64,000 bases of DNA from an uncultured Acidobacteriota bacterium (GTDB lineage Bacteria > Acidobacteriota > Thermoanaerobaculia > Multivoradales > JAHEKO01), in contig CAVQNG010000003.1 in NCBI GenBank assembly GCA_963713825.1, positions 128,001-192,000 of the forward strand, read 5' to 3'. Below are positions 15,695-64,000 of the stretch, piece after piece (within the stretch, counting starts at the first letter, position 1; every line of letters begins with the position of its first letter). Below the pieces are notes generated by a model. That model had not been told where the DNA came from and made no database searches. It saw only the letters and a program-made list of their open reading frames with translations. Position numbers and translations under genes: made by a program.

Positions 15695-15706
15695 TTTGGC
15701 CCAGGG

Positions 15707-16126: not shown

Positions 16127-16377
16127 GATTCGTTTCTCCTTTGGAGCGGGGATGGGTTTTCGGTACTGGCGCAACCTGCTCGCCCGAGTCGTTATGACCT
16201 GCCCTGAGGGCTGGAGCGGAGAGGAAGTTTGCGGCCGGATGGTAACACGCTGAGTCGATTCACTCGAACGCTGCCTGCCTCTTGTGCTAACTTTGAGTCG
16301 CTAGCCGACAGCTTCGAGCCGCGCGGTCCCCGACCGCGTCGTTGATAGCGCGTGCAACATGGGAAAGGAGTACAGTC

Positions 16378-44837: not shown

Positions 44838-44928
44838 GGATCGTCCCCCGTTCTGATACGCGACAGTGGCTTCGGCTCGCCGCAGCGCAGATCCGTTGGT
44901 CAGATACCAATCAATGAATCGAAATGCC

Positions 44929-44944
44929 TGCATACCCTGTGCCA
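44929..44944 (-). promoter_or_regulatory. Candidate sigma54 promoter for the STAS gene
   Basis: TGGCACAGGGTATGCA on the minus strand, GG-N10-GC. Confidence 0.55.
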
Positions 44945-44983
44945 TACTGCTCGAGGCAGCCGAACCTGGGAGACCCGGAAATC

Positions 44984-50920: not shown

Positions 50921-53349
50921 GCCACCTCCGGACGACCGATCGCTTCCACATCGTCTACGGTGATCGTCTCTGCACCGTTCTCGTAGGCCCGATTCACGAG
51001 GGCAATGCAGAGCTTCTGGATCAGATAAGGCCGCAGGCCCGTGAGCTCGATGATCCGTGACACGACGCCCTCCTCGAGCTTCAGCAGGTTGGCGATCGGC
51101 CGCTCGATCAAGGCTCGAGCATCTTCGACCCGGAAGGGCAGAACCTGGATCTCTTCGAAGAAGTTGTACCAGGGGCTGCCTTCTCGCTCCCATTGCTTCT
51201 TGATCTCCACACCGGAGACCACGGCGACGAGATTCTCAGCGAAGCTCTTCATGAATAGGCTCCGCAACCGCTGGTTGATCCTCGGGTCGTAGTCGTTCAG
51301 CTCATCGACCTCGTCGATCAACAGCACGAGCTTGACCTGCTTGCCGCTGCCCTCCGCCAAGCGCTGGATCACGGCGCGCAGATCGCGAACAAAGTCGCGG
51401 TGGGAGTACTCGACTTCGACGTTCAGGGAGCGCGATGGCGACAAGTCACCTAGATGAATTTCCAGGTCACTGAAGACATCGTCAGCCAGGGTTGCAAAGA
51501 ACCTGGTTTCCGGAGTGCCCTGCAAGTCGACGTATACGGGAAAGAAATCGTAGGTTGGATCGTCCAGCTCCCGCAATCGCTTCTTGAGATGGTGTTGGAT
51601 CGAAGTCTTGCCGATCCGCCGCTCACCGTAGAGCAGCAGGCTGTTGTTGTGGACGGTCTGGAGTATGCGATCGATGAGCCGGTCCCGTCCGAAGAAGAGG
51701 CCCTCGTCCAGCACCGGGGCACCTGCCACATAGGGATTGAGTCGACGGTGCCGGCGTCGAGCACGGCGATTTCGCCGAGCCACGACGAACCCGAGCGCCA
51801 GTGCTGCGACAACCGTGGCCATCGCTGCCGCGAGACGCGGAGACCGGAACCAGGGGCGGACAAGAGCCACGGCGTACTCACTGCTGGACGCGAGATCCTC
51901 CGCATCGGTAGCCACGACCCGGAACGTCTCGGGCCCGCCCCCGAGCACCGTGTCGACCCGGAATTCCGTGACGTAGGAGTCGCCAACTTGCTGATGGCTC
52001 GTGACTGCCTCCAGGTTCGAGCCCTTGCCATCGAAGCACTCGATGTCGACTGGCGAGTTGTCGATGATGACGCCACTGAGGCGAAACCCCGCATCGCGAA
52101 CCACTTGCACCTGGGAACCATCCTCCTGCGTCTGCCGAAAGTCGGCAAAACGGATAGCCGGAGGGATGTTGCCGGCGGCCCTGCCGAGCAGCACTCGGCT
52201 GAGCTGCTGGTAAGAGCGCGCAACGATCTCCATAGCCTGACTGTTGCCGGGCTCCAGAGCCAGCGCTCGATTCGCGGCGGACAGGGCACTCTCGAACCGG
52301 CGAGCCACGAGCTCGCTTTCGGCAGTCGCCAGTTCGGCCGCCAGGATCTGCCGGCTGGCCAGCTCTTCCTCCGCCAATGCTCGCGCTCCGACTAGACGAG
52401 ACTCGATGGCCTTGGCCTCCTCACCTCCGGCCTGCATGGCAATGACGGTCTGCAGTCTGTTCAGGGCCGCATCCAGTTGCCCGGCAGCCTCGAGTCCACG
52501 AACCGCCTCGAGCTCCTGCACGACGAACTCGGCCTGGGTCTTCTGCTGCCGCTGGGACTCGAGCTCGGTACGAAGGCGCTGCTGAGTGTCCTCCAACAGC
52601 CCCGAGATCTCCGGGTCGCCCGGCATCAGCTCCGCAGCTTCTCGAAAGCGGCCCGCCGCTGCCGCGTAGGACCCGGCGCTCAGAAGGGCTCGGCCTTCCG
52701 TCACCAGGAGCGCGGCACGAGTTTCTGCTCGAGCCTCCTGCTCCCGTTGTCTGGCTTCACCCAGCAGGGTCGCCATGAGGCTGGTCGCCTCGGGATCCTC
52801 GGGTGCCACCGCAAGCCCTCGACCCAGGGCTGTCATTGCCTGATCGGTTCTTCCTGCCGACCGCAGGTCCCGAGCTTCCCGAAGACTCTCCGCCAGAATC
52901 TGCCGGATTCGATCCTGATCCTCTGCCCAGCGGCTTTCGAGCCCCTGGACTGCTCTGGCACGGAGCGCTTCGAGCTCTTGGAACGAGCTCTGCGAACCCT
53001 CGATCGCACCCAGCCTCTCCTCGGTATCGAATGCCCGGAGCGCCGCCTCGTGCTGGCCGAGCGCAAGATAGGCCGTACCGAGCTTGAGATACGGCAGATA
53101 GTCGGTCGTGCGCATCCCATAGGTGCGCACCCTCACTCCCGAGTCACCCCGCCGCTGAATCGCCTGATTCAGCTCTTCGACCGCTTCTTCCCAGCGCTCG
53201 GCGCTGAGAGCCTCTTCGGCCCTTTGATAGTGCTGATACCAGAGGTCCGCCAGCAGGGGGCTGACTGCCACGAGGTTGGCGAGAAGGTAGATGCGAAGCG
53301 CCGGGGCGATTCGCACTCCAAGGATGCTGCGATGGGAGGATCCTGACAT
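50917..53349 (-). CDS. Single-pass membrane receptor-like protein: periplasmic TPR and beta domain, TM helix, cytoplasmic STAND-like ATPase
   Basis: Signal peptide, YLPYLKLG TPRs, beta-rich segment, TM at ~51781-51835 followed by RRNRRARRRHRR, then NPYVAG..FFGR, GERRIGKTS, LLIDEVD, PYLIQ. Start approximate. Confidence 0.87.
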   Translation of the reverse strand: MSGSSHRSILGVRIAPALRIYLLANLVAVSPLLADLWYQHYQRAEEALSAERWEEAVEELNQAIQRRGDSGVRVRTYGMRTTDYLPYLKLGTAYLALGQHEAALRAFDTEERLGAIEGSQSSFQELEALRARAVQGLESRWAEDQDRIRQILAESLREARDLRSAGRTDQAMTALGRGLAVAPEDPEATSLMATLLGEARQREQEARAETRAALLVTEGRALLSAGSYAAAAGRFREAAELMPGDPEISGLLEDTQQRLRTELESQRQQKTQAEFVVQELEAVRGLEAAGQLDAALNRLQTVIAMQAGGEEAKAIESRLVGARALAEEELASRQILAAELATAESELVARRFESALSAANRALALEPGNSQAMEIVARSYQQLSRVLLGRAAGNIPPAIRFADFRQTQEDGSQVQVVRDAGFRLSGVIIDNSPVDIECFDGKGSNLEAVTSHQQVGDSYVTEFRVDTVLGGGPETFRVVATDAEDLASSSEYAVALVRPWFRSPRLAAAMATVVAALALGFVVARRNRRARRRHRRLNPYVAGAPVLDEGLFFGRDRLIDRILQTVHNNSLLLYGERRIGKTSIQHHLKKRLRELDDPTYDFFPVYVDLQGTPETRFFATLADDVFSDLEIHLGDLSPSRSLNVEVEYSHRDFVRDLRAVIQRLAEGSGKQVKLVLLIDEVDELNDYDPRINQRLRSLFMKSFAENLVAVVSGVEIKKQWEREGSPWYNFFEEIQVLPFRVEDARALIERPIANLLKLEEGVVSRIIELTGLRPYLIQKLCIALVNRAYENGAETITVDDVEAIGRPEVA

Positions 53350-53613
53350 CGACTTTAACGTCCAGGCCCCATGCCGAAACGATCCTACTCCCAAAATCGA
53401 CTCCGAGATCTTCGTCTTCCCACTTCGTGGCCAGATCCGACCGAAGCATCGCACCGACGGCTCTCCACTTCGGTCTCTTTGCCTTCGAGACTCTAACGCG
53501 ATGGAAACGGCAAGACTCCGCAGCCTGCCCTAGCTTTTCAGCCCTGGGATTTCAGACCAGATAGACTCATTTGCCTGTTGCCCCATTCATTACTTGCCCT
53601 ACCGAGGCCAATC

Positions 53614-54510
53614 ATGAATCGACTCCCCTGCGCTCTCTTCCTGCTTCTACTGCTCAGCCCGATCGCAGGTGAGGCCGCCGATTCGGTGAAAATCTACATC
53701 TCCGCTGACATGGAGGGATTGGCGGGCGCCGTCACCAGTGAGCAACTCGGCCCCTCGGGTTTCGAATACGGCCAGTTCAGGGAGTTCATGACCGCGGAGG
53801 TCAATGCCGCCATCGAGGCGGCTCGCGACGCCGGCGCCACCGAGATCCTGGTCAGCGATTCCCACGGCAACGGCCAGAATCTGCTACTCGACAAGCTTCC
53901 CGCCGATGTCCAGGTGGTGCGGTCCTGGCCACGACCACTGGGCATGATGGAGGGAATCGACGAGAGCTTTGATGGCGCGATCTTCATCGGGTACCACACC
54001 AGTACGACGAATCCGGATGGCGTGCGAGCCCATACCCTCTCGAGTGCCAACCTGACCGCTCTCAGGCTCAACGGCATTCCGCTGCCGGAAGCGGGACTCA
54101 ACGCCGCGATTGCCGGCCATTTCGGAGTTCCGGTCCTGATGATCTCCGGTGACAATGCGATTGTCGAAGAGGCTCGAGAACTCCTCGGCGACATCGAAGG
54201 GGCCGAAGTCAAGGAGGCTTTGAGCTTCCACTCGGCAAAGACTCTGGTACCCGAGGCGGCCTGCGACCTGATTCGCCAGAGGGTTGGAACCGCCATGGAG
54301 CGCCTCGACAGCTTCACTGCGTACACCCTGGACACTCCTGTGGAGCTGGAAGTCAGCTTCAAGCACTACCAGCCAGCCCAACTCCTCGCCTATCTCTCTA
54401 TTGTCGAGCAGGTCGACTCTCACACCATCCGGTTTATCGGCGAGGACATGGTGGAGGTCTCCAAATTCCTCCAGTTCATCCTCGACTATCAGGTCCCGCT
54501 GGCCCCTTAG
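53614..54510 (+). CDS. M55 family D-aminopeptidase (DppA-like) with signal peptide
   Basis: IYISADMEG, DSHG, IGYH, AHT, ISGD motifs. Confidence 0.92.
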   Translation: MNRLPCALFLLLLLSPIAGEAADSVKIYISADMEGLAGAVTSEQLGPSGFEYGQFREFMTAEVNAAIEAARDAGATEILVSDSHGNGQNLLLDKLPADVQVVRSWPRPLGMMEGIDESFDGAIFIGYHTSTTNPDGVRAHTLSSANLTALRLNGIPLPEAGLNAAIAGHFGVPVLMISGDNAIVEEARELLGDIEGAEVKEALSFHSAKTLVPEAACDLIRQRVGTAMERLDSFTAYTLDTPVELEVSFKHYQPAQLLAYLSIVEQVDSHTIRFIGEDMVEVSKFLQFILDYQVPLAP

Positions 54511-54731: not shown

Positions 54732-56654
54732 GTGATCTTGACTGGATCTCATCCGTCACGGGTTTGTATCCGGCGCCTGCTGCAGAGTCTCGCCGGGTCG
54801 CTACCCGTCTTTCTTCTGGCTGTCTTTGCTCCCGGGACATCAGCCGCCTCCCTTTCCCAGCCTGTGGTCTTCTGCAGCCTTCCCGCTGACAAGGCACCGG
54901 CTAGCGGTGTTGCAGATGGAATGCTGCCATCCGATTACGGCCAGGGTGCTTCGCTGATGGTTCTACAGCCCGACGGCAGCACAGTGCGCTTGGCAGGTGA
55001 CTTCGCGAGTGCCTGCGACCCTGACGTTTCCTTCGATGGAGAGCACATCCTGTTCGCGGGCCAGAAGAACCCGGGAGATTCCTGGAACATCTGGGAGATG
55101 AGCAACGACGGCACCGGGGTGCGGCAGATCACGCATGAAGCGCTCGACTGCCGTCGGCCCATCTACCTCTCGACGTTCTACACCATCACATCGTCCGAGC
55201 CCTGGTACACGATCCTGTTCGAGCGGCAGGACGGCGTCTTGAACGAAGCGGGCACAGCCCCCGGAACCAGCCTCTACACGGTTCGCCTCGACGGCTCCGA
55301 GTTGCGGCGCATCACGTTTCACCCTGGCAACGACCGCACGCCCTTCCTGATGCAAGACGGTCTTCTGCTCTTCTCCGGATGGAGGATGCTATCGGATCCT
55401 CGCTTTCCCACCGGAAGGATCGGGCTCTACGGAGTCCAGACCGACGGTATCGACTATGCCTCTTTCGGCGGTCTGCAGGGATCGAGAATCCAGCACATGC
55501 CGACCCTGACGACAGACGGGCTCGTGGTCTTTGTCGAGGCTGACCAGGTGGACTGGGACGGCGCAGGCCGTCTGGCCGCCGTCCGAGCGCAGCGCCCCCA
55601 CCTCTCCTACTCCTCTCTGACCGACGAAGACCAGGGTCTGTTCCATTCTCCATCGCCATTGGCGGATGGCAGCGTGCTCGTGTCCCATCGTTCCGCAACA
55701 GCCGACAGCATTTTCGGACTCAGCAGGTTCTGGCCTGACAGCGGACGGAGGGAGGAGGTCGTCTACCTGCCCGGAGCCCACATCCTTCACGCCAGGCTGA
55801 TGGCTCCGCGGCCGGAGCCAGACGGCCGCTCCAGCACGGTGCGACCCGAGTCACCGACGGGCAAGCTCTACTGTCTGGACGTCTACGAGAGCGACACCGA
55901 CATTGCATCGCTCGAGCGAGGCACGATCGAGCGAGTACGGGTCATCGAAGGGGTGGCGACCGGGCAGAGTACGACCCCGGTCGCCAGACGGCTCCTGGGC
56001 GAAGCACCGGTAGAGGACGACGGATCGTTCCACATCGACCTGCCTGCCGATCTACCCGTCGAGCTACAACTCCTCGACGAAAGCGGCCAGGCCCTGGCGA
56101 GCTGCGATTGGATCTGGGTCAAGAACCGCGAGTACCGTGGTTGCATCGGCTGTCATGAGGATCCCGAGTTGACCCCAGAGAACCGCTTCGTACAAGCTGC
56201 GGCCCGACCAGCCAATCAGCTGACGCTGCCACCCGACAGGCGCCGCAGCGTGACCTTTCGACAGCATGTCCTGCCTCTCCTCCAGGCTTACTGCAGCGAC
56301 TGCCACGGTGAAGCTGGTGGAGTTCTGCCCTTTGGTTCACTGGCCGATGAGGCCGGTGCAATGGGGGCCTACGATGCGCTGACCGCCGGACGCGATGGCG
56401 AAGGGTCGGCCCGTCGCCCCCTGGTCACTCCTGGCAGCGCGACCACGAGTCCTTTGATCTGGCAACTCTTCGGTCGGGACACCTCGCAGACGCCGGACGC
56501 TGGAACGAACACGATGACTCTGATCGCGCCTGGACACCTCGATCTGCTGAGCGACGAAGAGCGCCGGGTCTTCACGGAGTGGATCGACCTCGGGGCCCAG
56601 TGGGACCTGCCGCCGGAGAGCTCTGTAGACCAACAAGGAGATGCCAGGCCATGA
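54732..56654 (+). CDS. Hydrazine synthase alpha-subunit-like diheme protein
   Basis: Signal peptide, PD40-like propeller (DFASACDPDVSFDG, IWEM..DG..RQIT), middle domain (VEDDGSF...PADLP..LQLLD...W......RGCIGCH), C-terminal CSDCH and EWIDLGAQWD. Start approximate. Confidence 0.82.
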   Translation: MILTGSHPSRVCIRRLLQSLAGSLPVFLLAVFAPGTSAASLSQPVVFCSLPADKAPASGVADGMLPSDYGQGASLMVLQPDGSTVRLAGDFASACDPDVSFDGEHILFAGQKNPGDSWNIWEMSNDGTGVRQITHEALDCRRPIYLSTFYTITSSEPWYTILFERQDGVLNEAGTAPGTSLYTVRLDGSELRRITFHPGNDRTPFLMQDGLLLFSGWRMLSDPRFPTGRIGLYGVQTDGIDYASFGGLQGSRIQHMPTLTTDGLVVFVEADQVDWDGAGRLAAVRAQRPHLSYSSLTDEDQGLFHSPSPLADGSVLVSHRSATADSIFGLSRFWPDSGRREEVVYLPGAHILHARLMAPRPEPDGRSSTVRPESPTGKLYCLDVYESDTDIASLERGTIERVRVIEGVATGQSTTPVARRLLGEAPVEDDGSFHIDLPADLPVELQLLDESGQALASCDWIWVKNREYRGCIGCHEDPELTPENRFVQAAARPANQLTLPPDRRRSVTFRQHVLPLLQAYCSDCHGEAGGVLPFGSLADEAGAMGAYDALTAGRDGEGSARRPLVTPGSATTSPLIWQLFGRDTSQTPDAGTNTMTLIAPGHLDLLSDEERRVFTEWIDLGAQWDLPPESSVDQQGDARP

Positions 56655-58276
56655 GAGCGCCTGAATCGTGTTTCTTGCTCCTGATCTTTCTGGCAAGTCC
56701 GCTTGTAAGCCAGTCGACCACGCCGTACTTCACCGACATCACGGAGATGGCTGGGCTCCGGTTCCAGCACAGCTTCGGTGACAGCGAGCTCAGTAATATC
56801 GTGGAGGGTACCGGTCCGGGCGCCGTCTTCTTCGACTACGACAACGACGACTACCCCGACATCTATCTCCTCAACGGCACATGGACACCGGAAGTCAACG
56901 ACAACCGCAGCCGCAATCTGCGCGGCCAGCTCAGTAACGCCCTCTACCGCAACAACCGCGACGGCACCTTCACCGATGTCACCGCTGCTGCCGGAGTCGG
57001 AGATCAAGGGTTTGGTATGGGCGGCTCGGCAGCGGACTTCGATCTCGACGGAGATCTCGATCTCTACGTGCTGAACTACGGTGCCAACGTCTTCTATCGC
57101 AACGATGGAGATGGCACCTTCACCGACGTCACCGAACAGGCCGGACTGTCTGATCCGCTTTGGAGCGTCTCGGCACCCTGGCTCGACTACGACGGTGACG
57201 GAGACCTGGACCTCTACGTCGCCAACTATCTAGAGTACGACGAAGGGGCTTTTCGGAGCTTCTACGCCGCGCAGGGCTATCCCGGGCCCCTGGCTTACAA
57301 GGGACAACCCGATCATCTCTATCGCAACGATGGAGATGGCACCTTCACCGATGTCACCGAAGAGGCTGGCGTGCTCGATCCCGACGGTCGTGCCATGAGC
57401 GCCATTGCGGTGGATCTCGACCAGGATGGCGACCAGGACATCTATGTGGCCAACGACGCCATGCCTAGCGCCTTCTGGGTCAACGACGGTCACGGGAACT
57501 TCCAGGACAGAGCCCTGCTCCAGGGAATCGCCTTTGGAGAGGGAGGGCAAGGGGCCTCGTCCATGGGGCCCGTGGTCGGCGATATCGATCGCAACGGACT
57601 GATGGACATCTGGATACCCGACATGGCCTATGGCTGCCTGCTGAGCCAGAGGGAGGAGGGGCTGTTCGCTGACGTCACTGCGGAGACCAACCTGGCGGTG
57701 ATCTGCGGTCAGTACACGGGATGGGGCAGCGGCTTGATCGATTTCGACAACGACGGCTACCTGGACGTCTTCGTGGCCAACGGCAATGCCCATCATCTCT
57801 ACACCGAAGAGGATGTCCTGGCTCACAACGACGGCACCGGTCACTACGTGGATGTGGCCAAGGATGGCGGCGCCTACTTCGAGAGCAAATCCGTCGGCCG
57901 AGGAGCGGCATTCGCCGACTTCGACAACGATGGTGATCTGGACATCCTGGTCGCCAACCTCGGCGAGTCTCCGAAGTTGTTGAGGAACGACACGGAGAGC
58001 GGCAACCACTGGCTGACAGTGGTACCGCTGCTCTCCGACAGCGAGACGGTGGCTATCGGATCCACCGTGACGGTGACAGTCGGGCAGAGGCGCTCCATCC
58101 ACCCGGTGCACGGTGTCTTCGGCTATCTCTCTACCAGCGATCCCCGCCCCCATTTCGGTCTCGGAACCGCTGAAGTGGCCGACAGAGTAGAGATCGTCTG
58201 GCCCGACGGAGAGCAGCAAGTCCTCGAGTCCGTTCCTGCCAATCAGATACTGGAGGTGGTGCAAGGTGCGAAATAG
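56651..58276 (+). CDS. CRTAC1-like FG-GAP repeat / ASPIC-UnbV protein
   Basis: Repeated D.D.DG..D.YV.N and LYRN.GDGTFTDVT motifs, GRGAAFAD, HFGLG....RVEIVWPDG. ATGA overlap. Confidence 0.92.
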   Translation: MRAPESCFLLLIFLASPLVSQSTTPYFTDITEMAGLRFQHSFGDSELSNIVEGTGPGAVFFDYDNDDYPDIYLLNGTWTPEVNDNRSRNLRGQLSNALYRNNRDGTFTDVTAAAGVGDQGFGMGGSAADFDLDGDLDLYVLNYGANVFYRNDGDGTFTDVTEQAGLSDPLWSVSAPWLDYDGDGDLDLYVANYLEYDEGAFRSFYAAQGYPGPLAYKGQPDHLYRNDGDGTFTDVTEEAGVLDPDGRAMSAIAVDLDQDGDQDIYVANDAMPSAFWVNDGHGNFQDRALLQGIAFGEGGQGASSMGPVVGDIDRNGLMDIWIPDMAYGCLLSQREEGLFADVTAETNLAVICGQYTGWGSGLIDFDNDGYLDVFVANGNAHHLYTEEDVLAHNDGTGHYVDVAKDGGAYFESKSVGRGAAFADFDNDGDLDILVANLGESPKLLRNDTESGNHWLTVVPLLSDSETVAIGSTVTVTVGQRRSIHPVHGVFGYLSTSDPRPHFGLGTAEVADRVEIVWPDGEQQVLESVPANQILEVVQGAK

Positions 58277-61148
58277 ATGGCGTCGACCCGTCCTTCTCGT
58301 GGGTCTGGCCTGTCTGGTGGCCATGGCATGGGGAGTTTCCTTGCCCGCTCAACCCAGGGAGCCTGTGTATGTGGGCGTGAAGGCCTGCGCTGAGTGTCAT
58401 TCGGGGCCCGAAGCGGGGCACCAGTTCAGCATCTGGAGACTGTCGCCTCACGCCAAGGCCTACGCCACGCTGTCCATGCCGGAGTCCAAGGAGATCGCTC
58501 GACTCAGCGGTATTCCCGAGGCTCCACACACAGCCAGGGTCTGTCTCGGCTGTCACACTACCGGTGCCGACGCAGAAGAATGGGAGAAAGACGACAAGTT
58601 CCTTCTCGAAGACGGAGTCCAGTGCGAAACCTGCCATGGCCCCGGCAGCGAGTACATGGATGAAGCCGTGATGCGAAATCGGCAGCTGGCCATGGAACGG
58701 GGTCTGAAGATGCCCTCTGGCCGCACCTGCATGATCTGCCACGGACCCAAAGGTTCACACGAGGCCGTACTCTCTGGCGAGCCCTACGATCTCGAGAAGG
58801 CTCTCGAGACCATTGCCCACCCCCGGCCCGACAGCCCGCCGATCGAAGCGCCAAGCACGAGTAGCGAGACCGAAGCCCTTCTCGGTTCCAGCGAGCACCG
58901 CTTCGCCGGCGTGATGAGCTGTGCGAAGTGTCACTCCGGCCCGATGATGGGCTTCCAGTTCAGCAGATGGCGCATGGGGCCTCATGCTCGGGCCTACGCG
59001 GTGCTCGGCACCCCGGCCGCCAAGGAAATGGCTAGACGCTCCGGAGTAAATGGCGAGCCCCAACAGAGCTATGCCTGCTTGCGATGCCACGCCACCGGCG
59101 CAGGCCATGATGCTGCCAGCTTCGAGCCGAGGTTCAACCAGGCGGACGGCGTTCAGTGCGAGAGCTGCCACGGACCGGGAGCGGACTACTCTCCCGAGGC
59201 CATCATGCTCGATCGGCCGGCAGCCAAAGCCGCCGGTCTTCGCGAGCAAGGGCCCGAGGTCTGTGCGGACTGCCACGAGCAGGGTCACGCCGGTGGCCCC
59301 TTCGACTACGAGGCGGCGCTTGCGGCCATCGCGCATCCCAGAGCACCAGCGAAGGTCGTCGACCAAGAGCCGGTCTACAAGACTCCGATCAATCTTGCCC
59401 TGACACCGGACGGCTCCGAGCTCTGGGTAGCCTGCGAGGCTTCCTCTTCGACGGTCATCATCGATACCACCTCACACGAGGTCTTGGAAGAGATCGCGGT
59501 AGGAGGCCAACCACACGACGTGGCATTCCACCCGGATGGCACGACGGCCTACATCACGAATCGCCTCGACGACACTCTTTCTGTAGTCGATGTGGCGACC
59601 CGCGAGATCGTGGCTACCGTCGAAGTCGGAGACGAACCCCACGGCGTGCTGACGGACGCTTCAGGCGGACGGATCTACGTTCTCAACAGCTCGCAGGACA
59701 GTGTCTCGGTGATCGATGCCGAGACCCTAGAGGAGACCAGACGCCTCACCACGTCGAGAGTCCCCTGGTCCCTGGCCCTCTCGCCGGACGGCGAAAAAAT
59801 CTTCGTCACGAATACCCTGTCCGGCTTTGTGCCACCGCGCACACCACCGATGTCCGAAGTCACGGTCATCGACGCCCGGCGTGGAGCGGTCGAGGATCGA
59901 TTCACCGTCCCGGCCGCCAATCTCCTGCAGGGAGTCGCCTGGCACCCGAGCGGCGAGTTCGCGATGGTGACGCTCAACCGCACCAAGAACCTGGTTCCCA
60001 TGACCCGATTGCTCCAGGGATGGACGATCACCAACGGTGTGGGCATCGTGTGGAGAGACGGACGGATCGACCAGGTCCTCTTGGATCAGCCCGACATCGC
60101 CTTCCCAGACGCCGCCGATGTGACCATGACCTCCGACGGACGACTGGCCCTGGTCACCAGCAGCGGCTCGGATCGCGTGGCGATCGTAGACCTCGAAAAG
60201 CTCTTGTCGGTGTTGGAGGCAGCGTCTCCCGAAGAGCGAGAGAAGGTCATCCCGAATCATCTGGCCAAATCCACTGAGTTTGTCGAGACCTTCATAAAGA
60301 CTGGCTTGAGTCCAAGGGGAATCACGTTATCGGCCGACGACAAAACCGCCTATGTCGCCAACACACTCGATGACACGGTAACGGTGATCGACCTGGAGCG
60401 CTTCGAAGCCGTGAAAGAGATCGATCTCGGTGGCCCTGAGGTGATCTCACAGACGAGGTGGGGCGAGCAGCTCTTCCACAGCGCCGACATCACCTTCCGG
60501 CGCCAGTTCTCCTGTCATTCCTGTCACCCGGATGGCCACGTCGACGGCATCACCTACGACATCGAGCCGGATGGAATCGGCACCGATCCGGTCGACAACC
60601 GAACCCTACGAGGCATTTTCGATACCGCTCCATTCAAATGGTCGGGGCTCAACCCCAGCCTGCAGCGACAGTGTGGGCCACGGTTGGCGGTGTTCTTCAC
60701 GCGGATCGCGCCCTTCACGCCCGAGGAGCTCGAGGCCTTGGAACTCTATATCACCACCATTCCTCGTCCTCCCAATCGTTATCGGGCCCTTGGGGCACCC
60801 TTGACCGAGGCGCAGCGTCTCGGCAAGGCCGTCTACGAACGCACCCACACCAACGGCGGCCGGCTGATTTCGCCCGATGGACGTTGCATCAATTGCCACC
60901 CGGGGCCGCTCTATACCGATCGTGGCAAACACGACGTCGGGACCCAATCTCCGCTCGACCGCGAGGACACCTTCGACACTCCGCACCTGACCAACATCTA
61001 CGACTCGGCACCCTATCTCCACGACGGCACGGCCTTCAGCCTCGAGGAGATCTGGACGCGATTCAACACCTATGATCAACACGGTGTCACCAACGATTTG
61101 ACGAAGGACCAACTCAACCATCTGATCGAGTATTTGAAGACCCTCTGA
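58266..61148 (+). CDS. Decaheme fusion: two c554-like tetraheme domains, YVTN beta-propeller (HZS-beta-like) and CcP/MauG-like diheme domain (HZS-gamma-like)
   Basis: Ten CxxCH motifs (8 N-terminal; CHSCH and CINCH C-terminal), GVQCE.CHGPG twice, YITN/YVAN blades, FDTP.L......PYLHDG, LIEYLKTL. Confidence 0.87.
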   Translation: MRNRWRRPVLLVGLACLVAMAWGVSLPAQPREPVYVGVKACAECHSGPEAGHQFSIWRLSPHAKAYATLSMPESKEIARLSGIPEAPHTARVCLGCHTTGADAEEWEKDDKFLLEDGVQCETCHGPGSEYMDEAVMRNRQLAMERGLKMPSGRTCMICHGPKGSHEAVLSGEPYDLEKALETIAHPRPDSPPIEAPSTSSETEALLGSSEHRFAGVMSCAKCHSGPMMGFQFSRWRMGPHARAYAVLGTPAAKEMARRSGVNGEPQQSYACLRCHATGAGHDAASFEPRFNQADGVQCESCHGPGADYSPEAIMLDRPAAKAAGLREQGPEVCADCHEQGHAGGPFDYEAALAAIAHPRAPAKVVDQEPVYKTPINLALTPDGSELWVACEASSSTVIIDTTSHEVLEEIAVGGQPHDVAFHPDGTTAYITNRLDDTLSVVDVATREIVATVEVGDEPHGVLTDASGGRIYVLNSSQDSVSVIDAETLEETRRLTTSRVPWSLALSPDGEKIFVTNTLSGFVPPRTPPMSEVTVIDARRGAVEDRFTVPAANLLQGVAWHPSGEFAMVTLNRTKNLVPMTRLLQGWTITNGVGIVWRDGRIDQVLLDQPDIAFPDAADVTMTSDGRLALVTSSGSDRVAIVDLEKLLSVLEAASPEEREKVIPNHLAKSTEFVETFIKTGLSPRGITLSADDKTAYVANTLDDTVTVIDLERFEAVKEIDLGGPEVISQTRWGEQLFHSADITFRRQFSCHSCHPDGHVDGITYDIEPDGIGTDPVDNRTLRGIFDTAPFKWSGLNPSLQRQCGPRLAVFFTRIAPFTPEELEALELYITTIPRPPNRYRALGAPLTEAQRLGKAVYERTHTNGGRLISPDGRCINCHPGPLYTDRGKHDVGTQSPLDREDTFDTPHLTNIYDSAPYLHDGTAFSLEEIWTRFNTYDQHGVTNDLTKDQLNHLIEYLKTL

Positions 61149-61160
61149 GGAGGGGAAGAG

Positions 61161-62375
61161 ATGAACCGGTTCCCAGCAACGCTACTCACCATCGTCATCG
61201 CAGTACTACCGCAGGCTGGATTGGCGGCCGCTAGCGAAGCATCCGCCACTGAGCAGTCGACGGTTACAGATCTCGACCTACCTTTCGTCTACACCGATTG
61301 GCAGCAGTACTCGGTCGAGGACGGGCTTCCCAACGATCACATCTTCACCGTCGAAGTCGACGGCCCCTGGGTCTGGATCGGGACCGAGGACGGTCTGGCT
61401 CGACTCGACAAACGCACTGGAGCGATTCGTTCCTGGAAGGAAGAAGACGGCCTACCGTGGCGGGTCGTATCCGCGCTGGCCGTTCAGCCGGAAACTGGTG
61501 AGCTGTGGTTGGGTATGTTCGGAGGCGGCCTGGCCCGTTTCAGCGGTGGCCGCTTCGACCACTACCACCAACTCAACAGTGGTTTGGTCAATGATGTGGT
61601 CTATGGAGTCTGCATCGAGAACGAGAATATCTGGGCTGCCACCACCGCTGGTGCCAGTCGCTACAACACCCGCACTGGCGAGTGGACCATCTACACAGAG
61701 AAGAACGCCCCCATGGAGGAGATCTGGAACTACGGCTGCAGCTACGCCGACGGCAAGGTCTACCTGGGAGTCTGGGGCAGTGGAGTCCTCGAGTTCGACA
61801 TCGAGACCGAGCAATGGAAAGACTACCTCGACCCGGACGGCGAGATGGAGATCGATCTTTACCGCGACGACGGCATCGTGCACGTCATCACGACCGGCGT
61901 GAGCTATGTCGAGAAGACCCTTTGGGTGACGACCTACTTCGGCGCCTCCCGCTACGACGGTCGTCACTGGCGAGGCTATTTCAAAAAGGACAGCGGTACG
62001 CCGAGTGATTTCCACAACGCCGTCAAGGCGAGAAGTGCCAACGAAGCCTGGTTCTCCACCGACAAGGGACTCGCGCAGGTAGCCGATTTCCCCACAGATA
62101 CCTGGGTGGTCTACACAACCGACCACGCCTCGGGCACCGGCCAGGCGGTCATCACTCGAGGCGAGCGGGTCCTCGAAACCCGCACTATCCCTCCGAACAT
62201 CCCTCACAACTACGTCCTGTGGACCGCGATCGACGGCAACGATCTGTGGATCGGTACTTCGAAAGGACTGGCTCACGCCAGGGGCGAGGACTACTTCCCC
62301 GGCCTGCGCCGAGCTGCGGGACAAGCTGCGACCAGCGATCCCGAGGGACTACCAACGAATCGAGGCGGATCATGA
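61161..62375 (+). CDS. Secreted beta-propeller of two-component-regulator-propeller type
   Basis: Signal peptide; repeated GLP/VND.(I/V)...WIGT..GL blades. Confidence 0.82.
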   Translation: MNRFPATLLTIVIAVLPQAGLAAASEASATEQSTVTDLDLPFVYTDWQQYSVEDGLPNDHIFTVEVDGPWVWIGTEDGLARLDKRTGAIRSWKEEDGLPWRVVSALAVQPETGELWLGMFGGGLARFSGGRFDHYHQLNSGLVNDVVYGVCIENENIWAATTAGASRYNTRTGEWTIYTEKNAPMEEIWNYGCSYADGKVYLGVWGSGVLEFDIETEQWKDYLDPDGEMEIDLYRDDGIVHVITTGVSYVEKTLWVTTYFGASRYDGRHWRGYFKKDSGTPSDFHNAVKARSANEAWFSTDKGLAQVADFPTDTWVVYTTDHASGTGQAVITRGERVLETRTIPPNIPHNYVLWTAIDGNDLWIGTSKGLAHARGEDYFPGLRRAAGQAATSDPEGLPTNRGGS

Positions 62376-63862
62376 AGAGCATCCTCAAGGACAAGTTGCT
62401 GATCACCTGTCTGAGCTCGGCTCTGATCATCGTGCCCTCCTTGGCCTGGACCGAGGAAGCGGCCGCAACCGACGATGCCGAGCCCCTGGACACCGAGACC
62501 ATACTCGAGGCCATCGATGTCGATCCCTACGAAGTGCCTGACCTGCCTCTGAAGAAGAATACGAACTACGGCGCCTCGGCCGTCGACGTCGAGCCTTTCG
62601 GTCACGTGGAGCCCTACTTCGAGCACTTCCTCGAGCAGATGGAGTACACGGGGCCGGGTAGGGCCAAGCCCGAACCCGAGGACATCGATACCGTCAAGAT
62701 CGGTTTCCTTGGACCGATAGTGCCGACCGTCTCGGTGGCCACGGGCGGTATGAGTCACGAGGAGCCACTGGGCATCGCCATGCTCCGCGGCACGAGGATG
62801 GCCATCGAAGAGGCGAATGCCGCCGGGGGTTACCAGCCTCGAGACATCCCCTTCGAGCTGGTGGTGCACAACGACAACGGCCTGTGGGGGGCCTCGGGCA
62901 ACGAGATCATCGATCTGGCCTATAAGGAGAACGTCTGGGCCATCCTGGGAACCATCGATGGCGCCAACTCGCATATCGCGATCCGGGTGGCCCTGAAAGC
63001 CGAGATCCCGATGATCAACACAGGGGATACGGATCCCACCTTCATCGAGACGAACATCCCCTGGGTCATCAGGACCATCGGGGACGATCGGCAGCAGAAC
63101 TACATGCTGCTCGACTATCTCTATCGCAAACAGGGATACGAGCGGGTGGCCATCATTCGAGCCAGTAATCGGTACGGTCGCTTCGGAGTCCGGGAGATCA
63201 AGGACGGCAGCCGGCGTCTCGGCTACCCGGTCGTCATCGAGATGGCCTACCCGGTGGGTGACGATGACTTCTCCCTGCAGATCGATCGGATCGCCGAGGC
63301 CGAGCCCCAGGCGATCGTCCATTGGGGCGATGCCGTGGACGGTGCCCGGATCCTGACTCAGATTCGCGAACGGGGCATGGACCAGCCCTTCTTCTGCTCG
63401 GACCGCTGTGCTTCCGACGAGTTCGTGAATCTGGCCGGCGAGCTCGCGCAGGAGGTCTACTCCACGTATCCGTGGAACCCCCACCGCGAGGATCCCAACC
63501 TGGCACGCTTTCGTCAGGAATTCGAAAAGCGCTATGGCGTCGAGCCCGACACCTACGCCGCACACGCCTATGACGGGGCGAACCTCCTGATCTGGGCCAT
63601 CCAGAACGCCGGCCTCAACCGTGCCAAGATCCGCGATCTCCTGGCCTATCGTAGCGAGCCCTGGCCGGGTGTCACCGGGGACATTCCGCTCAACGCCGCT
63701 CTGGATGACGGCGGAGAGGTCTTCATGACGCGTTGGGACGGCGAGGGATGGAGCTACTACTCCCGCGAGGACCTGGGCGTTCCGAGCGGCCTCATCGCAC
63801 CCGAGACGCGGCAGGAGCGCGAGCCTCTCTCCGCCTCGAGCGTCGGAGGAGGTACGCAATAG
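62372..63862 (+). CDS. Periplasmic LIV/ANF-type ligand-binding protein
   Basis: VKIGFLGP, G..MAIEEANAAGG, NVWAILG, DFS.QI, YAAHAYDG, GVTG. ATGA overlap. Confidence 0.88.
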   Translation: MKSILKDKLLITCLSSALIIVPSLAWTEEAAATDDAEPLDTETILEAIDVDPYEVPDLPLKKNTNYGASAVDVEPFGHVEPYFEHFLEQMEYTGPGRAKPEPEDIDTVKIGFLGPIVPTVSVATGGMSHEEPLGIAMLRGTRMAIEEANAAGGYQPRDIPFELVVHNDNGLWGASGNEIIDLAYKENVWAILGTIDGANSHIAIRVALKAEIPMINTGDTDPTFIETNIPWVIRTIGDDRQQNYMLLDYLYRKQGYERVAIIRASNRYGRFGVREIKDGSRRLGYPVVIEMAYPVGDDDFSLQIDRIAEAEPQAIVHWGDAVDGARILTQIRERGMDQPFFCSDRCASDEFVNLAGELAQEVYSTYPWNPHREDPNLARFRQEFEKRYGVEPDTYAAHAYDGANLLIWAIQNAGLNRAKIRDLLAYRSEPWPGVTGDIPLNAALDDGGEVFMTRWDGEGWSYYSREDLGVPSGLIAPETRQEREPLSASSVGGGTQ

Positions 63863-64000
63863 CCCACCAGATCTTTTCCACGGGAATCCTGGTGCTGGTC
63901 CTCCTTGCACGCGCTCTCCACGGTCAGGCTCCACCTCCAGAGGAACGTCCGGACGACGAGCCGTACCACGATTTCCGACTTCAGCCGCTGGAGTATCTCG
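63859..64000 (+). CDS. 5' end of a second LIV-type binding-protein paralog with apparent ATA start, truncated by the window
   Basis: GGAGGAGG SD, then an open frame (M)AHQIFSTGILVLVLLARALHG...EPYHDFRLQPLEYL resembling EPYFEHFLEQMEYTG of the upstream gene. Confidence 0.6.
   Translation, partial: MAHQIFSTGILVLVLLARALHGQAPPPEERPDDEPYHDFRLQPLEYL

What the first reader, a model, noticed from the sequence alone, without database searches (positions are those of the whole stretch)
54732..64000. Hydrazine-synthase-like alpha and beta-gamma operon in an apparently non-anammox bacterium
Seen: a tightly coupled operon (ATGA overlaps) of exported proteins, namely a propeller/diheme protein, an FG-GAP/ASPIC protein, a decaheme propeller fusion, a sensor-type propeller and two LIV-type binding proteins. 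Known: anammox hydrazine synthase is alpha (6-blade propeller plus two hemes), beta (7-blade propeller) and gamma (CcP/MauG-like diheme), and beta-gamma is fused in some anammox lineages. Compared with the Kuenenia subunits as I recall them, 54732-56654 is collinear with alpha over its whole length (DF..A.DP, IWEM..DG..RQ.T, V.F...(I/V).P.L...C..CH, EWIDLGAQWD). The rear two thirds of 58266-61148 follow beta (KN..P...G...TN, RV.I.D..K.L) and then gamma (SL.R.CG, LTEAQ..G, HDVGT, FDTP.L, D.HG, L.EYLK.L). Inference: a periplasmic heme complex with HZS architecture and unknown chemistry, perhaps N-N or N-O related, which could inform the origin of HZS.
Basis: partly seen in the sequence, partly recalled or inferred. 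Interest (0 to 1): 0.92.

Follow-up and report, generated by a model that had tools for sequence, protein, structure and literature searches.

The report
Known hydrazine-synthase-like heme operon
This acidobacterial operon encodes a twelve-heme exported enzyme complex that is truly related to the anammox hydrazine synthase but lacks its key catalytic residues, and this type of gene cluster has already been described in print, though what it does is still unknown.

Summary
Window 54732-64000 holds an operon of exported proteins: an HzsA-like diheme propeller protein, an FG-GAP/CRTAC1-like protein, a decaheme fusion (two c554-like tetraheme modules, an HzsB-like propeller and an HzsC-like diheme unit), a Reg_prop-type propeller and two LivK-type binding proteins. 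The second binding protein runs past the window end.

Homology to Kuenenia HZS is specific and end to end: 5c2v_A E 2e-40, 5c2v_B 6e-38, 5c2v_C 1.9e-19.

It is not a hydrazine synthase:
- Scores are 4-7 fold below NCBIfam's equivalog cut-offs.
- The Tyr591 region, Cys303, gamma-His144, gamma-Asp168 and the beta-loop Glu are not kept.
- The genome (Acidobacteriota, Thermoanaerobaculia) has no hydrazine dehydrogenase.

The cluster matches the "clade I" HZS homologues of Hagglund et al. 2025 (GBE). Similar genes were reported in FEMS Microbiol Lett 2023 and Nat Commun 2025.

I add that:
- the conserved unit is exactly six genes (47 of 80 loci complete, 31 cut by contig ends);
- the propeller and the binding proteins occur fused elsewhere;
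- the gamma part keeps the Trp/Gln pattern of di-heme peroxidases;
- a model docks alpha on beta-gamma (0.72, controls 0.00).

Function remains unknown. Interest is moderate to low.

The parts
54732..56654 (+). alpha' : HzsA-like exported protein with a TolB-like six-blade propeller, a middle domain with heme motif CIGCH, and a C-terminal domain with heme motif CSDCH. The start codon is uncertain (frame open from 54555).
   Evidence: Sequence and family matches:
- 5c2v_A E 2e-40 in four collinear stretches.
- Pfam HZS_alpha 1.5e-19.
- NF052339 166.5 bits against a cut-off of 800.
- 25.4% identity over 708 columns to a true HzsA.

Structure:
- Foldseek top hit 5c2v_A, E 5.8e-32 over 765 columns; next best is TolB at 2.8e-11.
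56651..58276 (+). FG-GAP / ASPIC-UnbV (CRTAC1-like) exported propeller protein. Its start overlaps the alpha' stop (ATGA).
   Evidence: - FG-GAP_3 6.4e-45 and UnbV_ASPIC 1.6e-21.
- Human CRTAC1 9etn_A 1.8e-23.
- Junction.
- Present in this position in 78 of 80 related loci; in the other two the contig ends first.
58266..59360 (+). N-terminal part of the decaheme fusion: signal peptide plus eight CxxCH motifs in two cytochrome c554-like tetraheme modules (residues 1-365).
   Evidence: - Cytochrome_C554 5.6e-32 in two stretches.
- 1bvb c554 4.2e-7.
- 10 CxxCH in the whole protein here and in all 37 full-length relatives.
59379..60389 (+). beta' : HzsB-like seven-blade YVTN propeller of the fusion (residues 372-708). 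It includes the loop RTKNLVPMTRLLQGWTITN, which aligns with the HZS beta tunnel loop.
   Evidence: - 5c2v_B E 6e-38 in one end-to-end stretch.
- NF052340 163.9 bits against a cut-off of 560.
- Foldseek top hit 5c2v_B, E 3.7e-28, TM 0.89 on the target.
- The loop lies in the predicted alpha' interface.
60438..61148 (+). gamma' : HzsC-like / CcP-MauG-like diheme domain of the fusion (residues 725-960), with heme motifs CHSCH and CINCH, Trp792, Gln802 and Cys803.
   Evidence: - 5c2v_C 2.3e-21, then di-heme peroxidases from 3.3e-6.
- 29.3% identity to a true HzsC.
- W792, Q802, C803 and R806 are invariant in 28 sequences.
61161..62375 (+). Exported propeller protein of the Reg_prop type, like the periplasmic sensor propellers of Bacteroides hybrid two-component systems. 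It has no signalling output domain.
   Evidence: - Reg_prop 3.4e-5.
- 4a2l_A and 3v9f_A 1.4e-20.
- Present after gamma' in 51 of 53 loci with DNA there.
- Fused to binding-protein domains in L082 and in 10 of 10 long relatives scanned.
62372..63862 (+). PBP1: exported type-I (LivJ/K-like) periplasmic binding protein with an N-terminal extension of about 80 residues. Its start overlaps the previous stop (ATGA).
   Evidence: - Peripla_BP_6 4.8e-42.
- 4gnr_A 2.2e-21, 3hut_A 2.2e-19, LivJ/LivK 1e-13.
- Junction.
63733..64000 (+). 5' part of PBP2, a second LivJ/K-like binding protein. The gene continues to window-coordinate 65100 outside the window, and its start codon is uncertain.
   Evidence: - L005:1733-3100 Peripla_BP_6 6.5e-38.
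- 3hut_A 3e-26.
- A homologue follows PBP1 in 35 of 38 other long loci; none was found in L036, L042 or L083, and L028's match lay elsewhere on the opposite strand.

Best explanation
This is a new member, in a Thermoanaerobaculia (Acidobacteriota) genome, of the already published 'clade I' family of hydrazine-synthase homologues. It is a self-contained six-gene cassette for an exported complex with twelve hemes per alpha'/beta'gamma' pair. It is not a hydrazine synthase.

Shown here:
- alpha', beta' and gamma' are true, full-length homologues of HzsA, HzsB and HzsC.
- The residues that define HZS chemistry are missing.
- The cassette is conserved in gene content and order across at least four phyla.

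Inferred mechanism:
- alpha' docks on beta'gamma' as in HZS. The invariant loop after its first heme motif (CHEDPELTPENRF) would sit against the beta' loop that corresponds to the HZS tunnel loop.
- Electrons run along the built-in octaheme c554-like chain to the CcP/MauG-type di-heme unit.
- The gamma-I' heme keeps the HZS-type third cysteine. It also has the Trp and Gln of di-heme peroxidases, and an Arg where HZS has its proton-donating Asp. I infer that this heme reduces a small N-O or O-O compound (NO, hydroxylamine, nitrite or peroxide).
- A second step would take place at the normally His-ligated, hence redox-active, alpha' heme.
- The Reg_prop propeller and the two LivK-type binding proteins would form one substrate-capturing or regulating module, possibly for an amino acid or amine. 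The CRTAC1-like propeller would be a structural subunit.

The identification part I hold at about 0.9. The specific chemistry I hold at about 0.3.
For: Homology:
- 5c2v_A 2e-40 in four collinear stretches.
- 5c2v_B 6e-38 and 5c2v_C 1.9e-19.
- 25-29% identity to the HZS subunits of an anammox genome.
- Foldseek top hits are HZS alpha and HZS beta.

Clade I features are all present, as described in PMC12758564 sections 7-8.

Not HZS:
- NCBIfam scores against cut-offs: 166.5 vs 800, 213 vs 1250, 163.9 vs 560, 85.7 vs 625.
- True HzsA reads CSGCHDGSY, whereas this family reads CIGCHEDPE followed by a deletion.
- alpha-Cys303 aligns with Phe.
- gamma-His144 aligns with Trp and gamma-Asp168 with Arg/Leu.
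- Neither Glu of the beta loop is kept.
- HDH model scores are only 64-88 bits against a cut-off of 900.

Cassette:
- 47 of 80 loci are complete and in the same order, 31 are cut by contig ends, 2 are odd.
- No conserved flanking genes.

Complex model:
- Score 0.72, best of 3 controls 0.00.
- This mark was reached by 58 of 80 solved complexes and by 2 of 110 mismatched pairs.
- Runs agree in at least 69% of contacts; partner pLDDT is at least 72.
- The interface falls on the invariant residues of both partners.

CcP-like pocket: Trp792 and Gln802 align with the FWDGR...Q pattern in 4 of 4 peroxidase alignments shown.

Module: Reg_prop, PBP1 and PBP2 form one 1332-aa frame in L082. 10 of 10 long relatives scanned are propeller-PBP fusions.
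Against: - No experiment on any member of this clade was found in my searches.
- The chemistry is inferred from residue patterns only. The roles I assign to Trp, Gln and Arg rest on recalled CcP/MauG literature.
- The N-terminal CcP alignments are individually weak (domain E-values 0.46 to 950).
- The complex model may pass from memory of the solved HZS structure. I cut alpha' to its two heme domains, and my own alignments were used.
- The AlphaFold model of gamma' was below pLDDT 50, so no pocket geometry could be read.
- A reductase for small inorganic molecules does not explain why two amino-acid-type binding proteins, a glycan-sensor-like propeller and a CRTAC1-like protein are always present.
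- It also does not explain the RidA-family gene directly upstream in 13 of 39 loci.
- The best PDB sequence hit of beta' is a generic archaeal YVTN protein (1l0q, 2.9e-63), through repeated blades.
Confidence: 0.55

Rival explanations
1. It is a genuine, divergent hydrazine synthase, and the host is a cryptic anammox bacterium outside Planctomycetota. This is the reading given to such genes in the cold-seep study.
For: PMC11828985 (passages read) reports 'HzsA' in 94 MAGs of 10 phyla, including 10 Acidobacteriota. It describes fused beta-gamma, AlphaFold-Multimer heterotrimers and transcription, and calls these organisms potential anammox bacteria. The three-subunit architecture and gamma-Cys165 are kept here, and alpha' docks on beta'gamma' in a model.
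Against: - All four NCBIfam HZS models score 4-7 fold below their cut-offs.
- The Tyr591 ligand region is deleted and Cys303 is absent.
- gamma-His144 is Trp and gamma-Asp168 is not kept.
- No hydrazine dehydrogenase: three distant HAO-family proteins score 64-88 bits against 900.
- The window carries a pyruvate formate-lyase.
- PMC12758564 reaches the same rejection from the same residues (section 8 read).
Confidence: 0.04
2. It is an oxidative enzyme. The MauG/CcP-like di-heme unit is charged by peroxide or oxygen. It would then oxidise an organic nitrogen compound (amino acid, amine or peptide) brought by the binding proteins, or install a protein-derived cofactor in a partner subunit. Electrons would leave through the octaheme chain.
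For: - gamma' keeps the Trp and Gln pattern of CcP/MauG rather than the HZS His.
- Two LivJ/K-type binding proteins are always present without any ABC permease or ATPase genes.
- A cytoplasmic RidA/YjgF-family gene lies directly upstream on the same strand in 13 of 39 long loci from three phyla.
- A C-N hydrolase lies downstream in 6 of 39 loci.
- A DppA-type D-aminopeptidase is the upstream neighbour here.
- The beta' propeller weakly resembles the quinohemoprotein amine dehydrogenase beta subunit (TIGR03907 2e-11; 1jju_B at rank 34).
Against: - The neighbour genes are not universal; this window's cassette has no RidA gene.
- Five of the six C-N hydrolase genes are on the opposite strand.
- The RidA-like proteins have no signal peptide while the complex is exported.
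- No candidate cofactor-bearing small subunit is encoded.
- Strict anaerobes are said to carry the cluster (PMC12758564), which fits peroxide or oxygen use less well.
- The similarity to amine dehydrogenase is generic YVTN propeller likeness.
Confidence: 0.2
3. It is mainly an electron conduit or metal/extracellular redox module, a decaheme wire with propeller scaffolds. The HZS-like parts would be structural only.
For: - The N-terminal octaheme part gives weak hits to DmsE-family and GSU2203-family decahemes and to MtrC/MtrF domains.
- Carriers include sediment Planctomycetota and Acidobacteriota.
- PMC10732223 notes metal-cycling genes in genomes with hzs-like genes.
Against: - Conservation is highest in gamma' (about 74% identity across phyla), not in the heme wire (about 51%).
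- The pocket residues W792, Q802, C803 and R806 are invariant, as expected of a catalytic site.
- No outer-membrane porin or other conduit partner is conserved next to the cassette.
Confidence: 0.08

Closest known systems
'Clade I' hydrazine-synthase homologue clusters (Hagglund et al. 2025, Genome Biol Evol, PMC12758564), reported in Aquisphaera giovannonii, Thermogutta terrifontis, Novipirellula artificiosorum, Syntrophobacter fumaroxidans, Paludibaculum fermentans and Opitutus terrae
   Same: - alpha-like gene upstream, FG-GAP/CRTAC1 gene in between.
- Fused beta-gamma with eight extra heme motifs in two c554 domains.
- Two substrate-binding protein genes downstream.
- Both heme motifs in alpha.
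- Cys at gamma-165 and Trp at gamma-144.
- Tyr591 region, Cys303 and beta-loop Glu missing.
   Different: - The host class (Thermoanaerobaculia) is not among the named species I read; the supplements were closed.
- This alpha' has a His aligned with alpha-His772, which the paper says is absent in clade I. It is not conserved in the family.
- In the sections I read, the paper does not mention the Reg_prop-type gene between beta-gamma and the binding proteins.
Anammox hydrazine synthase HzsABC (Kuenenia stuttgartiensis, PDB 5c2v; EC number recalled as 1.7.2.7)
   Same: - Three homologous modules with the same domain order within each.
- 25-29% identity.
- Third cysteine at heme gamma-I.
- Insertion loop in the sixth beta blade.
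- Predicted alpha to beta-gamma docking near hemes alpha-I and gamma-I.
   Different: - Gene order is alpha first.
- beta-gamma is fused to an octaheme.
- The alpha-I heme is canonically His-ligated, with no Tyr/Zn site.
- Trp replaces gamma-His144 and Arg lies where gamma-Asp168 is.
- No hydrazine dehydrogenase partner.
- Extra FG-GAP, Reg_prop and binding-protein genes.
- The complex is exported to a normal periplasm rather than an anammoxosome.
Bacterial di-heme cytochrome c peroxidases and MauG (for example 1iqc, 1zzh, 3o5c, 1nml)
   Same: - Two-heme fold (PF03150 at 26.8 bits against a cut-off of 25.6).
- C-terminal FDTPxLxN...PYxHDG region.
- Trp and Gln aligned with the FWDGR...Q pattern in 4 of 4 alignments shown.
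   Different: - Only E 3e-6 or weaker.
- Fused to a propeller and an octaheme.
- Extra cysteine next to the Gln.
- By spacing, the recalled distal Glu position is a Thr.
- Always paired with an HzsA-like partner.
hzsABC-like genes of Phycisphaerae UBA1845 MAGs (PMC10732223) and 'previously undescribed HzsA' of cold-seep MAGs in ten phyla (PMC11828985)
   Same: - hzsA-like gene next to a fused hzsBC-like gene.
- Bit scores of 89-163 against Kuenenia, comparable to 142, 133 and 72 here.
- Acidobacteriota are among the carriers.
   Different: Those papers lean towards possible new anammox bacteria. The residues and the missing HDH here speak against that reading. I could not see their supplementary gene tables, so identity of cluster type is not verified.
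Nitrosomonas cytochrome c554 and DmsE/MtrA-type multiheme wires
   Same: Two tetraheme c554-like modules (Pfam 5.6e-32; 1bvb 4.2e-7).
   Different: Here the modules are an N-terminal extension of an enzyme subunit, not a free electron carrier.

Membership tests
Hydrazine synthase proper (HzsA, HzsB, HzsC / HzsBC) | Scores above NCBIfam equivalog cut-offs | tested here: not met
   Scores against cut-offs:
- alpha 166.5 vs 800.
- BC fusion 213 vs 1250.
- beta 163.9 vs 560.
- gamma 85.7 vs 625.

For comparison, true HzsA genes score 1518-1606 bits.
Hydrazine synthase proper (HzsA, HzsB, HzsC / HzsBC) | Heme alpha-I with Tyr591 as proximal ligand and a His587/Cys303 zinc site | tested here: not met
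   True HzsA reads CSGCHDGSY. The window protein and the nine relatives printed in that alignment (27 rows) read C-I-G-C-H-E, then a gap. Cys303 (chain residue 276) aligns with Phe.
Hydrazine synthase proper (HzsA, HzsB, HzsC / HzsBC) | Heme gamma-I pocket: third covalent bond from Cys165, with His144 and the proton donor Asp168 | tested here: not met
   Cys165 is kept (C803, invariant in 28 sequences). His144 is Trp, and Asp168 aligns with Arg or Leu. Residue numbers come from PMC12758564 and PMC12607021. The chain offset of 39 was derived from the CxxCH motif.
Hydrazine synthase proper (HzsA, HzsB, HzsC / HzsBC) | Conserved Glu in the beta 245-260 tunnel loop | tested here: not met
   The loop aligns (KNWLPVCEAENGQVFTN with KNLVPMTRLLQGWTITN), but both Glu of the Kuenenia loop face Arg and Leu. 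Which Glu is Glu253 was inferred, not read from the entry.
Hydrazine synthase proper (HzsA, HzsB, HzsC / HzsBC) | Hydrazine dehydrogenase in the same genome | tested here: not met
   There are three HAO-superfamily frames. NF052343 scores are 73.2, 87.9 and 64.1 bits against a cut-off of 900. The genome is 96.36% complete.
Hydrazine synthase proper (HzsA, HzsB, HzsC / HzsBC) | Makes hydrazine from NO (or NH2OH) and ammonium | not testable with these tools
   This needs an enzyme assay.
Clade I HZS-homologue cluster (PMC12758564) | alpha-like gene upstream of a fused beta-gamma gene, with an FG-GAP/CRTAC1 gene between them | tested here: met
   Gene order and overlaps. Domains. CRTAC1 hit.
Clade I HZS-homologue cluster (PMC12758564) | Eight additional heme motifs in two c554 domains at the N-terminus of beta-gamma | tested here: met
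   10 CxxCH in total. Cytochrome_C554 matches in two stretches.
Clade I HZS-homologue cluster (PMC12758564) | Both heme motifs (alpha-I and alpha-II) in the alpha-like protein | tested here: met
   CIGCH and CSDCH are present. Both are invariant in the family.
Clade I HZS-homologue cluster (PMC12758564) | Two ABC-type substrate-binding protein genes downstream | tested here: met
   Peripla_BP_6 4.8e-42 and 6.5e-38.
Clade I HZS-homologue cluster (PMC12758564) | Placement inside clade I in a tree with the paper's reference sequences | not tested
My tree holds only relatives fetched here.
Bacterial di-heme cytochrome c peroxidase / MauG family | Di-heme CcP fold with a Trp between the hemes and a distal Gln | tested here: inconclusive
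   - PF03150 is just over its cut-off (26.8 vs 25.6).
- CcP chains match at E 3.3e-6 to 0.04.
- Trp792 and Gln802 align with W and Q in 4 of 4 CcP alignments shown, but those N-terminal stretches have domain E-values of 0.46-950.
- The roles of the residues are recalled.
Bacterial di-heme cytochrome c peroxidase / MauG family | Free-standing periplasmic enzyme of about 330 residues that reduces H2O2 | tested here: not met
   The domain is the C-terminal quarter of a 960-residue fusion. Activity is not testable here.

The most novel reading that the evidence does not exclude
The six-gene cassette could encode a so far unknown periplasmic nitrogen-cycle enzyme. It occurs in hundreds of non-anammox species of Acidobacteriota, Planctomycetota, Verrucomicrobiota and Chloroflexota.

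In this reading, a peroxidase/MauG-like, cysteine-cross-linked heme and a second heme on the HzsA-like partner act in sequence through an HZS-type internal channel. The co-substrate would be an amino acid or amine handed over by a fused-in-some-genomes propeller plus binding-protein module. The reaction could be N-O or N-N bond chemistry on organic nitrogen, or heme-based amine oxidation feeding electrons into a built-in octaheme wire.

This would be the ancestral chemistry from which hydrazine synthesis was derived.
Probability: 0.12. Interest if true: 0.85.

Novelty: new member of a known kind. Interest (0 to 1): 0.35.

Why it matters
Hydrazine synthase was long held to have no relatives. 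The homologues bear on how anammox arose, and on whether 'hzsA' hits in metagenomes may be read as anammox potential.

This window gives an independent, residue-level case in Acidobacteriota that such hits are not hydrazine synthases. That supports the 2025 GBE reading against the 2025 cold-seep reading.

The cassette itself is strongly conserved: gamma' is about 74% identical between phyla. It has no known function, so it is a sizeable blank in periplasmic redox biochemistry. Cultured carriers are named in the literature, which makes it directly testable.

As a finding of this scan it is not new.

Tried and rejected

- Literature. Seven full-text searches found no experimental work on any non-anammox HZS homologue. 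They found only the three genomic reports and HZS biochemistry. The gene tables of PMC12758564, PMC10732223 and PMC11828985 may already list Thermoanaerobaculia carriers, the Reg_prop gene or the RidA neighbour.

- The AlphaFold2 model of the whole fusion had mean pLDDT 67 and was below 50 over most of gamma'. I used it only for the propeller. The Foldseek ranking says nothing about gamma' or the octaheme.

- The alpha' model gave a global TM of only 0.42 to 5c2v_A with rmsd 14 A. I read this as loose domain placement in a heme-free model. It may also mean a different domain arrangement.

- Rfam found nothing in the window at gathering thresholds.

- Conserved flanking genes: none shared with this window beyond the six genes. 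The upstream D-aminopeptidase and the downstream DEAD-box helicase are not conserved neighbours.

- RNA evidence. One metatranscriptome run held 8% of the sampled words. It gave short, near-identical contigs in alpha' (56118-56439, 3 differences), the fusion (58478-58794, 3 differences) and the Reg_prop gene (61459-61708, 1 difference). These are contigs in an RNA library, DNA carry-over is possible, and stretches without cover prove nothing. I treat this as a weak hint only. The other listed runs are of unrecorded kind, or hold next to none of the words.

- I considered reading the ligand of the binding proteins from LivJ pocket residues. I dropped it because the residue numbers would have come from memory only.

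- I considered a transfer story from the tree. The window clade sits with a Verrucomicrobiota row and Phycisphaerales rows at 93% SH-aLRT, apart from other Acidobacteriota. The supports are unstarred, the tree is unrooted and MAG labels are fallible, so no direction of transfer is claimed.

Full report
WHAT IS THERE. On the + strand from 54732 to the window end lie six tightly packed genes. Two junctions are ATGA overlaps (56651-56654 and 62372-62375). One is an 11-nt overlap at 58266-58276, and one is a 12-nt gap with a GGAGG. The products are:

- an HzsA-like protein with two CxxCH motifs (Pfam HZS_alpha 1.5e-19);
- an FG-GAP/ASPIC protein (FG-GAP_3 6.4e-45, UnbV_ASPIC 1.6e-21; human CRTAC1 9etn 1.8e-23);
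- a 960-residue protein with ten CxxCH motifs, made of two cytochrome c554-like modules, a YVTN propeller and a CcP/MauG-like end;
- a Reg_prop-type propeller (4a2l and 3v9f, 1.4e-20);
- two LivJ/K-type binding proteins (Peripla_BP_6 4.8e-42 and 6.5e-38). The second runs 1.1 kb past the window end.

All six begin with what look by eye like signal peptides.

IS THE LIKENESS TO HYDRAZINE SYNTHASE REAL? Yes.

- Against all PDB sequences, the only hit of the first protein is Kuenenia HZS alpha (5c2v_A, E 2e-40). It matches in four stretches in the same order along both proteins.
- The fusion matches HZS beta in one end-to-end stretch (E 6e-38) and HZS gamma over its whole length (1.9e-19).
- I also compared with the three HZS genes of an unnamed anammox genome that I fetched (HzsA model score about 1599 bits). 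Identities are 25.4% over 708 columns, 28.4% over 341 and 29.3% over 283.
- An AlphaFold2 model of the alpha-like protein (mean pLDDT 76.3) finds HZS alpha first (E 5.8e-32, 765 columns). TolB propellers follow far behind (2.8e-11) and cover only the N-terminal third. The global TM-score is only 0.42.
- The propeller of the fusion finds HZS beta first (E 3.7e-28, TM 0.89 on the target).
- One point against specificity: the best PDB sequence hit of the propeller is a generic archaeal YVTN protein (1l0q, 2.9e-63), through repeated blades.

IT IS NOT A HYDRAZINE SYNTHASE.

- NCBIfam's four HZS models are hit at 166.5, 213, 163.9 and 85.7 bits. Their cut-offs are 800, 1250, 560 and 625.
- The true HzsA reads CSGCHDGSY, with the tyrosine that ligates heme alpha-I four residues after the histidine. 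The window protein and the nine relatives printed in the alignment (27 rows) read CIGCHE followed by a long gap.
- alpha-Cys303 aligns with Phe.
- In gamma, Cys165 is kept (C803, invariant in 28 sequences). His144 is Trp, and the proposed proton donor Asp168 faces Arg or Leu. The role of Asp168 comes from passages of PMC12607021.
- Neither Glu of the beta tunnel loop is kept.

The genome is 5.42 Mb and 96.36% complete. It has one such cassette. It has three distant HAO-superfamily cytochromes that score 64-88 bits against the hydrazine dehydrogenase cut-off of 900. A housekeeping GTPase in the window (TypA) is 90% identical to proteins named from Thermoanaerobaculia MAGs. The nearest cassettes are also in Thermoanaerobaculia and Acidobacteriota MAGs. 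The window also carries a pyruvate formate-lyase.

ALREADY IN PRINT. Three papers report such genes.

- Hagglund et al. 2025 (PMC12758564; I read the abstract, sections 7 and 8, and the first part of the discussion) sort co-located HZS homologues into four clades. Their clade I has the alpha-like gene first, an FG-GAP/CRTAC1 gene in between, a fused beta-gamma with eight extra hemes in two c554 domains, and two substrate-binding protein genes downstream. It keeps Cys165, has Trp for His144, and lacks Tyr591/Ser590, Cys303 and the loop Glu. That is this operon. They conclude that these are not hydrazine synthases and propose no function.
- PMC10732223 (passages read) had reported hzsA-like genes next to fused hzsBC-like genes in Phycisphaerae MAGs. 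It suggested a wider enzyme family with other substrates.
- PMC11828985 (passages read) reported such genes in ten phyla, Acidobacteriota included, as potential anammox bacteria.

My residue checks and the missing dehydrogenase side with the first paper. One small difference: this alpha' has a His aligned with alpha-His772, which the paper says clade I lacks. The His is not conserved in the family.

WHAT I CAN ADD ON THE CASSETTE.

- The HzsA-like family is large. 584 of 8000 scored candidates had E <= 1e-5.
- Of the best 80 loci, 47 hold all parts in the same order. 31 are cut by a contig end, with what is present in the same order. 2 are odd: L050 stops after a four-heme remnant, and L065 has 1.2 kb after gamma' without a propeller match.
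- All 37 full-length fusions have exactly ten CxxCH motifs.
- In 39 long loci, the conserved unit is exactly the six genes; no flanking gene of this window is shared.
- Identity to the window across phyla is lowest for alpha' (about 45%) and highest for gamma' (about 74%).
- Within the host's own class, the alpha' homologue was found in 10 of 201 sampled genomes, the host included. So it is patchy.
- The Reg_prop-type gene is not mentioned in the sections I read. It belongs to the unit: 51 of 53 loci with DNA after gamma' have it.
- In one Thermoguttaceae MAG, the Reg_prop gene and both binding-protein genes form a single 1332-residue frame.
- Among the best 150 representatives of its relatives, the 10 long ones I scanned all carry an N-terminal propeller of this kind fused to a Peripla_BP_6 domain.
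- I infer that the propeller and the binding proteins work as one physical module. No ABC permease or ATPase gene accompanies them.
- A cytoplasmic RidA/YjgF-family gene lies directly upstream on the same strand in 13 of 39 loci from three phyla, though not here.

DO ALPHA' AND BETA'GAMMA' BIND? I sent beta'gamma' (residues 365-960) and the two heme domains of alpha' (residues 340-640, counted from 54732), each with a 28-row alignment from the same genomes.

- The score was 0.72 (runs 0.75, 0.71, 0.72), and the best of 3 controls was 0.00.
- That mark was reached by 58 of 80 solved complexes and by 2 of 110 mismatched pairs.
- The runs agree in at least 69% of contacts, and the partner's pLDDT is at least 72.
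- The confident contacts join the alpha' segment 468-491 (the first heme motif and the invariant EDPELTPENRF after it) to beta' 572-589 (RTKNLVPMTRLLQGWTITN), to 660-667 and to gamma' 769-773.
- The beta' 572-589 loop aligns with the HZS tunnel loop.
- These are the most conserved residues of both partners.
- A like complex (HZS) is solved, so the pass may reflect likeness rather than binding of this copy. My own alignments were used, so the calibration holds only roughly.

HOW IT MOST LIKELY WORKS. Shown: the homology, the heme count, the missing HZS residues and the conserved six-gene unit. The rest is inferred.

- gamma' looks like an intermediate between di-heme peroxidases and HZS gamma. 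Trp792 and Gln802 align with the FWDGR...Q pattern in all 4 peroxidase alignments printed. Those stretches are individually weak. Next to the Gln sits the HZS-type cysteine.
- From recalled CcP/MauG work, the Trp carries electrons between the two hemes and the Gln lines the reactive heme pocket.
- The alpha' heme has an ordinary histidine motif, so unlike the irreducible Tyr-ligated HZS heme (PMC12607021 abstract) it should be redox-active.
- I therefore favour a two-site periplasmic reductase. It would be fed by its own octaheme chain and would act on a small N-O or O-O compound at gamma-I', with a follow-up step at alpha'.
- The propeller plus binding-protein module would deliver or sense a nitrogenous co-substrate.
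- This does not explain well why amino-acid-type binding proteins are obligatory. So an oxidative, MauG-like action on organic nitrogen remains a serious rival.

EXPRESSION. One metatranscriptome run holds short, near-identical contigs in three of the genes. This is a weak hint. PMC11828985 reports transcripts of acidobacterial homologues in sediments (passage).

VERDICT. This is a further member in another class. The function is an open and testable question, and the residue evidence argues against counting such genes as anammox markers.

Noticed in passing
L082:16083-20081 (+), Thermoguttaceae MAG contig: The Reg_prop-type propeller, PBP1 and PBP2 of the cassette are one open frame of 1332 residues (Reg_prop plus two Peripla_BP_6 stretches). 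This is a natural fusion of three genes that are separate in the window.
   Followed up: partly
L050:13573-14274 (+), Phycisphaerales MAG chromosome: The cassette breaks off after a 233-residue remnant with four CxxCH motifs. The beta'gamma', propeller and binding-protein genes are missing although the DNA continues, and opposite-strand genes follow. This looks like a decayed copy.
   Followed up: partly
L071:13581-14381 and 14216-16432 (+), Acidobacteriaceae MAG: The decaheme fusion is split into two overlapping frames with 4 and 6 CxxCH motifs. This may be a frameshift, a sequencing error or a real split.
   Followed up: no
Upstream of alpha' in L015, L024, L029, L030, L032, L045, L052, L062, L063, L066, L069, L076, L085: A RidA/YjgF-family gene (single domain of about 165-195 aa, or double domain of about 370-400 aa with weak likeness to FkbO/Hyg5 chorismatases) lies on the same strand 3-560 nt before alpha'. 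It has no signal peptide and is absent from the window.
   Followed up: partly
window 53578-54510 (+): A DppA-type D-aminopeptidase gene (Peptidase_M55 1.4e-92) lies directly upstream of the operon on the same strand. It is not a conserved neighbour in other loci.
   Followed up: partly
window 44924-46930 (+), 49253-51193 (-), 50917-53454 (-): Three large signalling-type genes lie just upstream: an ATPase domain fused to a Ser/Thr kinase, an AAA ATPase fused to a Planctomycete-type ECF sigma factor domain (PF07638 7e-54), and a TPR plus AAA_16 protein.
   Followed up: no
window 31470-34502 (-): One 1010-residue frame carries a molybdopterin oxidoreductase (PF00384, PF01568) followed by the first half of a class-V aminotransferase domain. 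This is either an unusual fusion or two genes read through by the ORF listing.
   Followed up: no
G000:C5:179874-180350, C3:1778236-1778739, C3:104146-104385: There are three HAO-superfamily multiheme cytochromes in the genome (PF13447 over cut-off). Each is far from hydrazine dehydrogenase (64-88 bits against 900). Their function was not examined.
   Followed up: partly
Genomes G473, G477, G505, G513, G561 (same class, family f15): Their alpha' homologues match only up to about residue 500 of 640, so they lack the C-terminal heme domain. This resembles clades II/III of the GBE paper.
   Followed up: no
L074 (labelled Sedimentisphaerales) and L052 (labelled Pirellulales): Their decaheme fusions are near-identical in the tree (end branches 0.07 and 0.09) although the records name different classes. 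This may be a recent transfer or a mislabelled bin.
   Followed up: no
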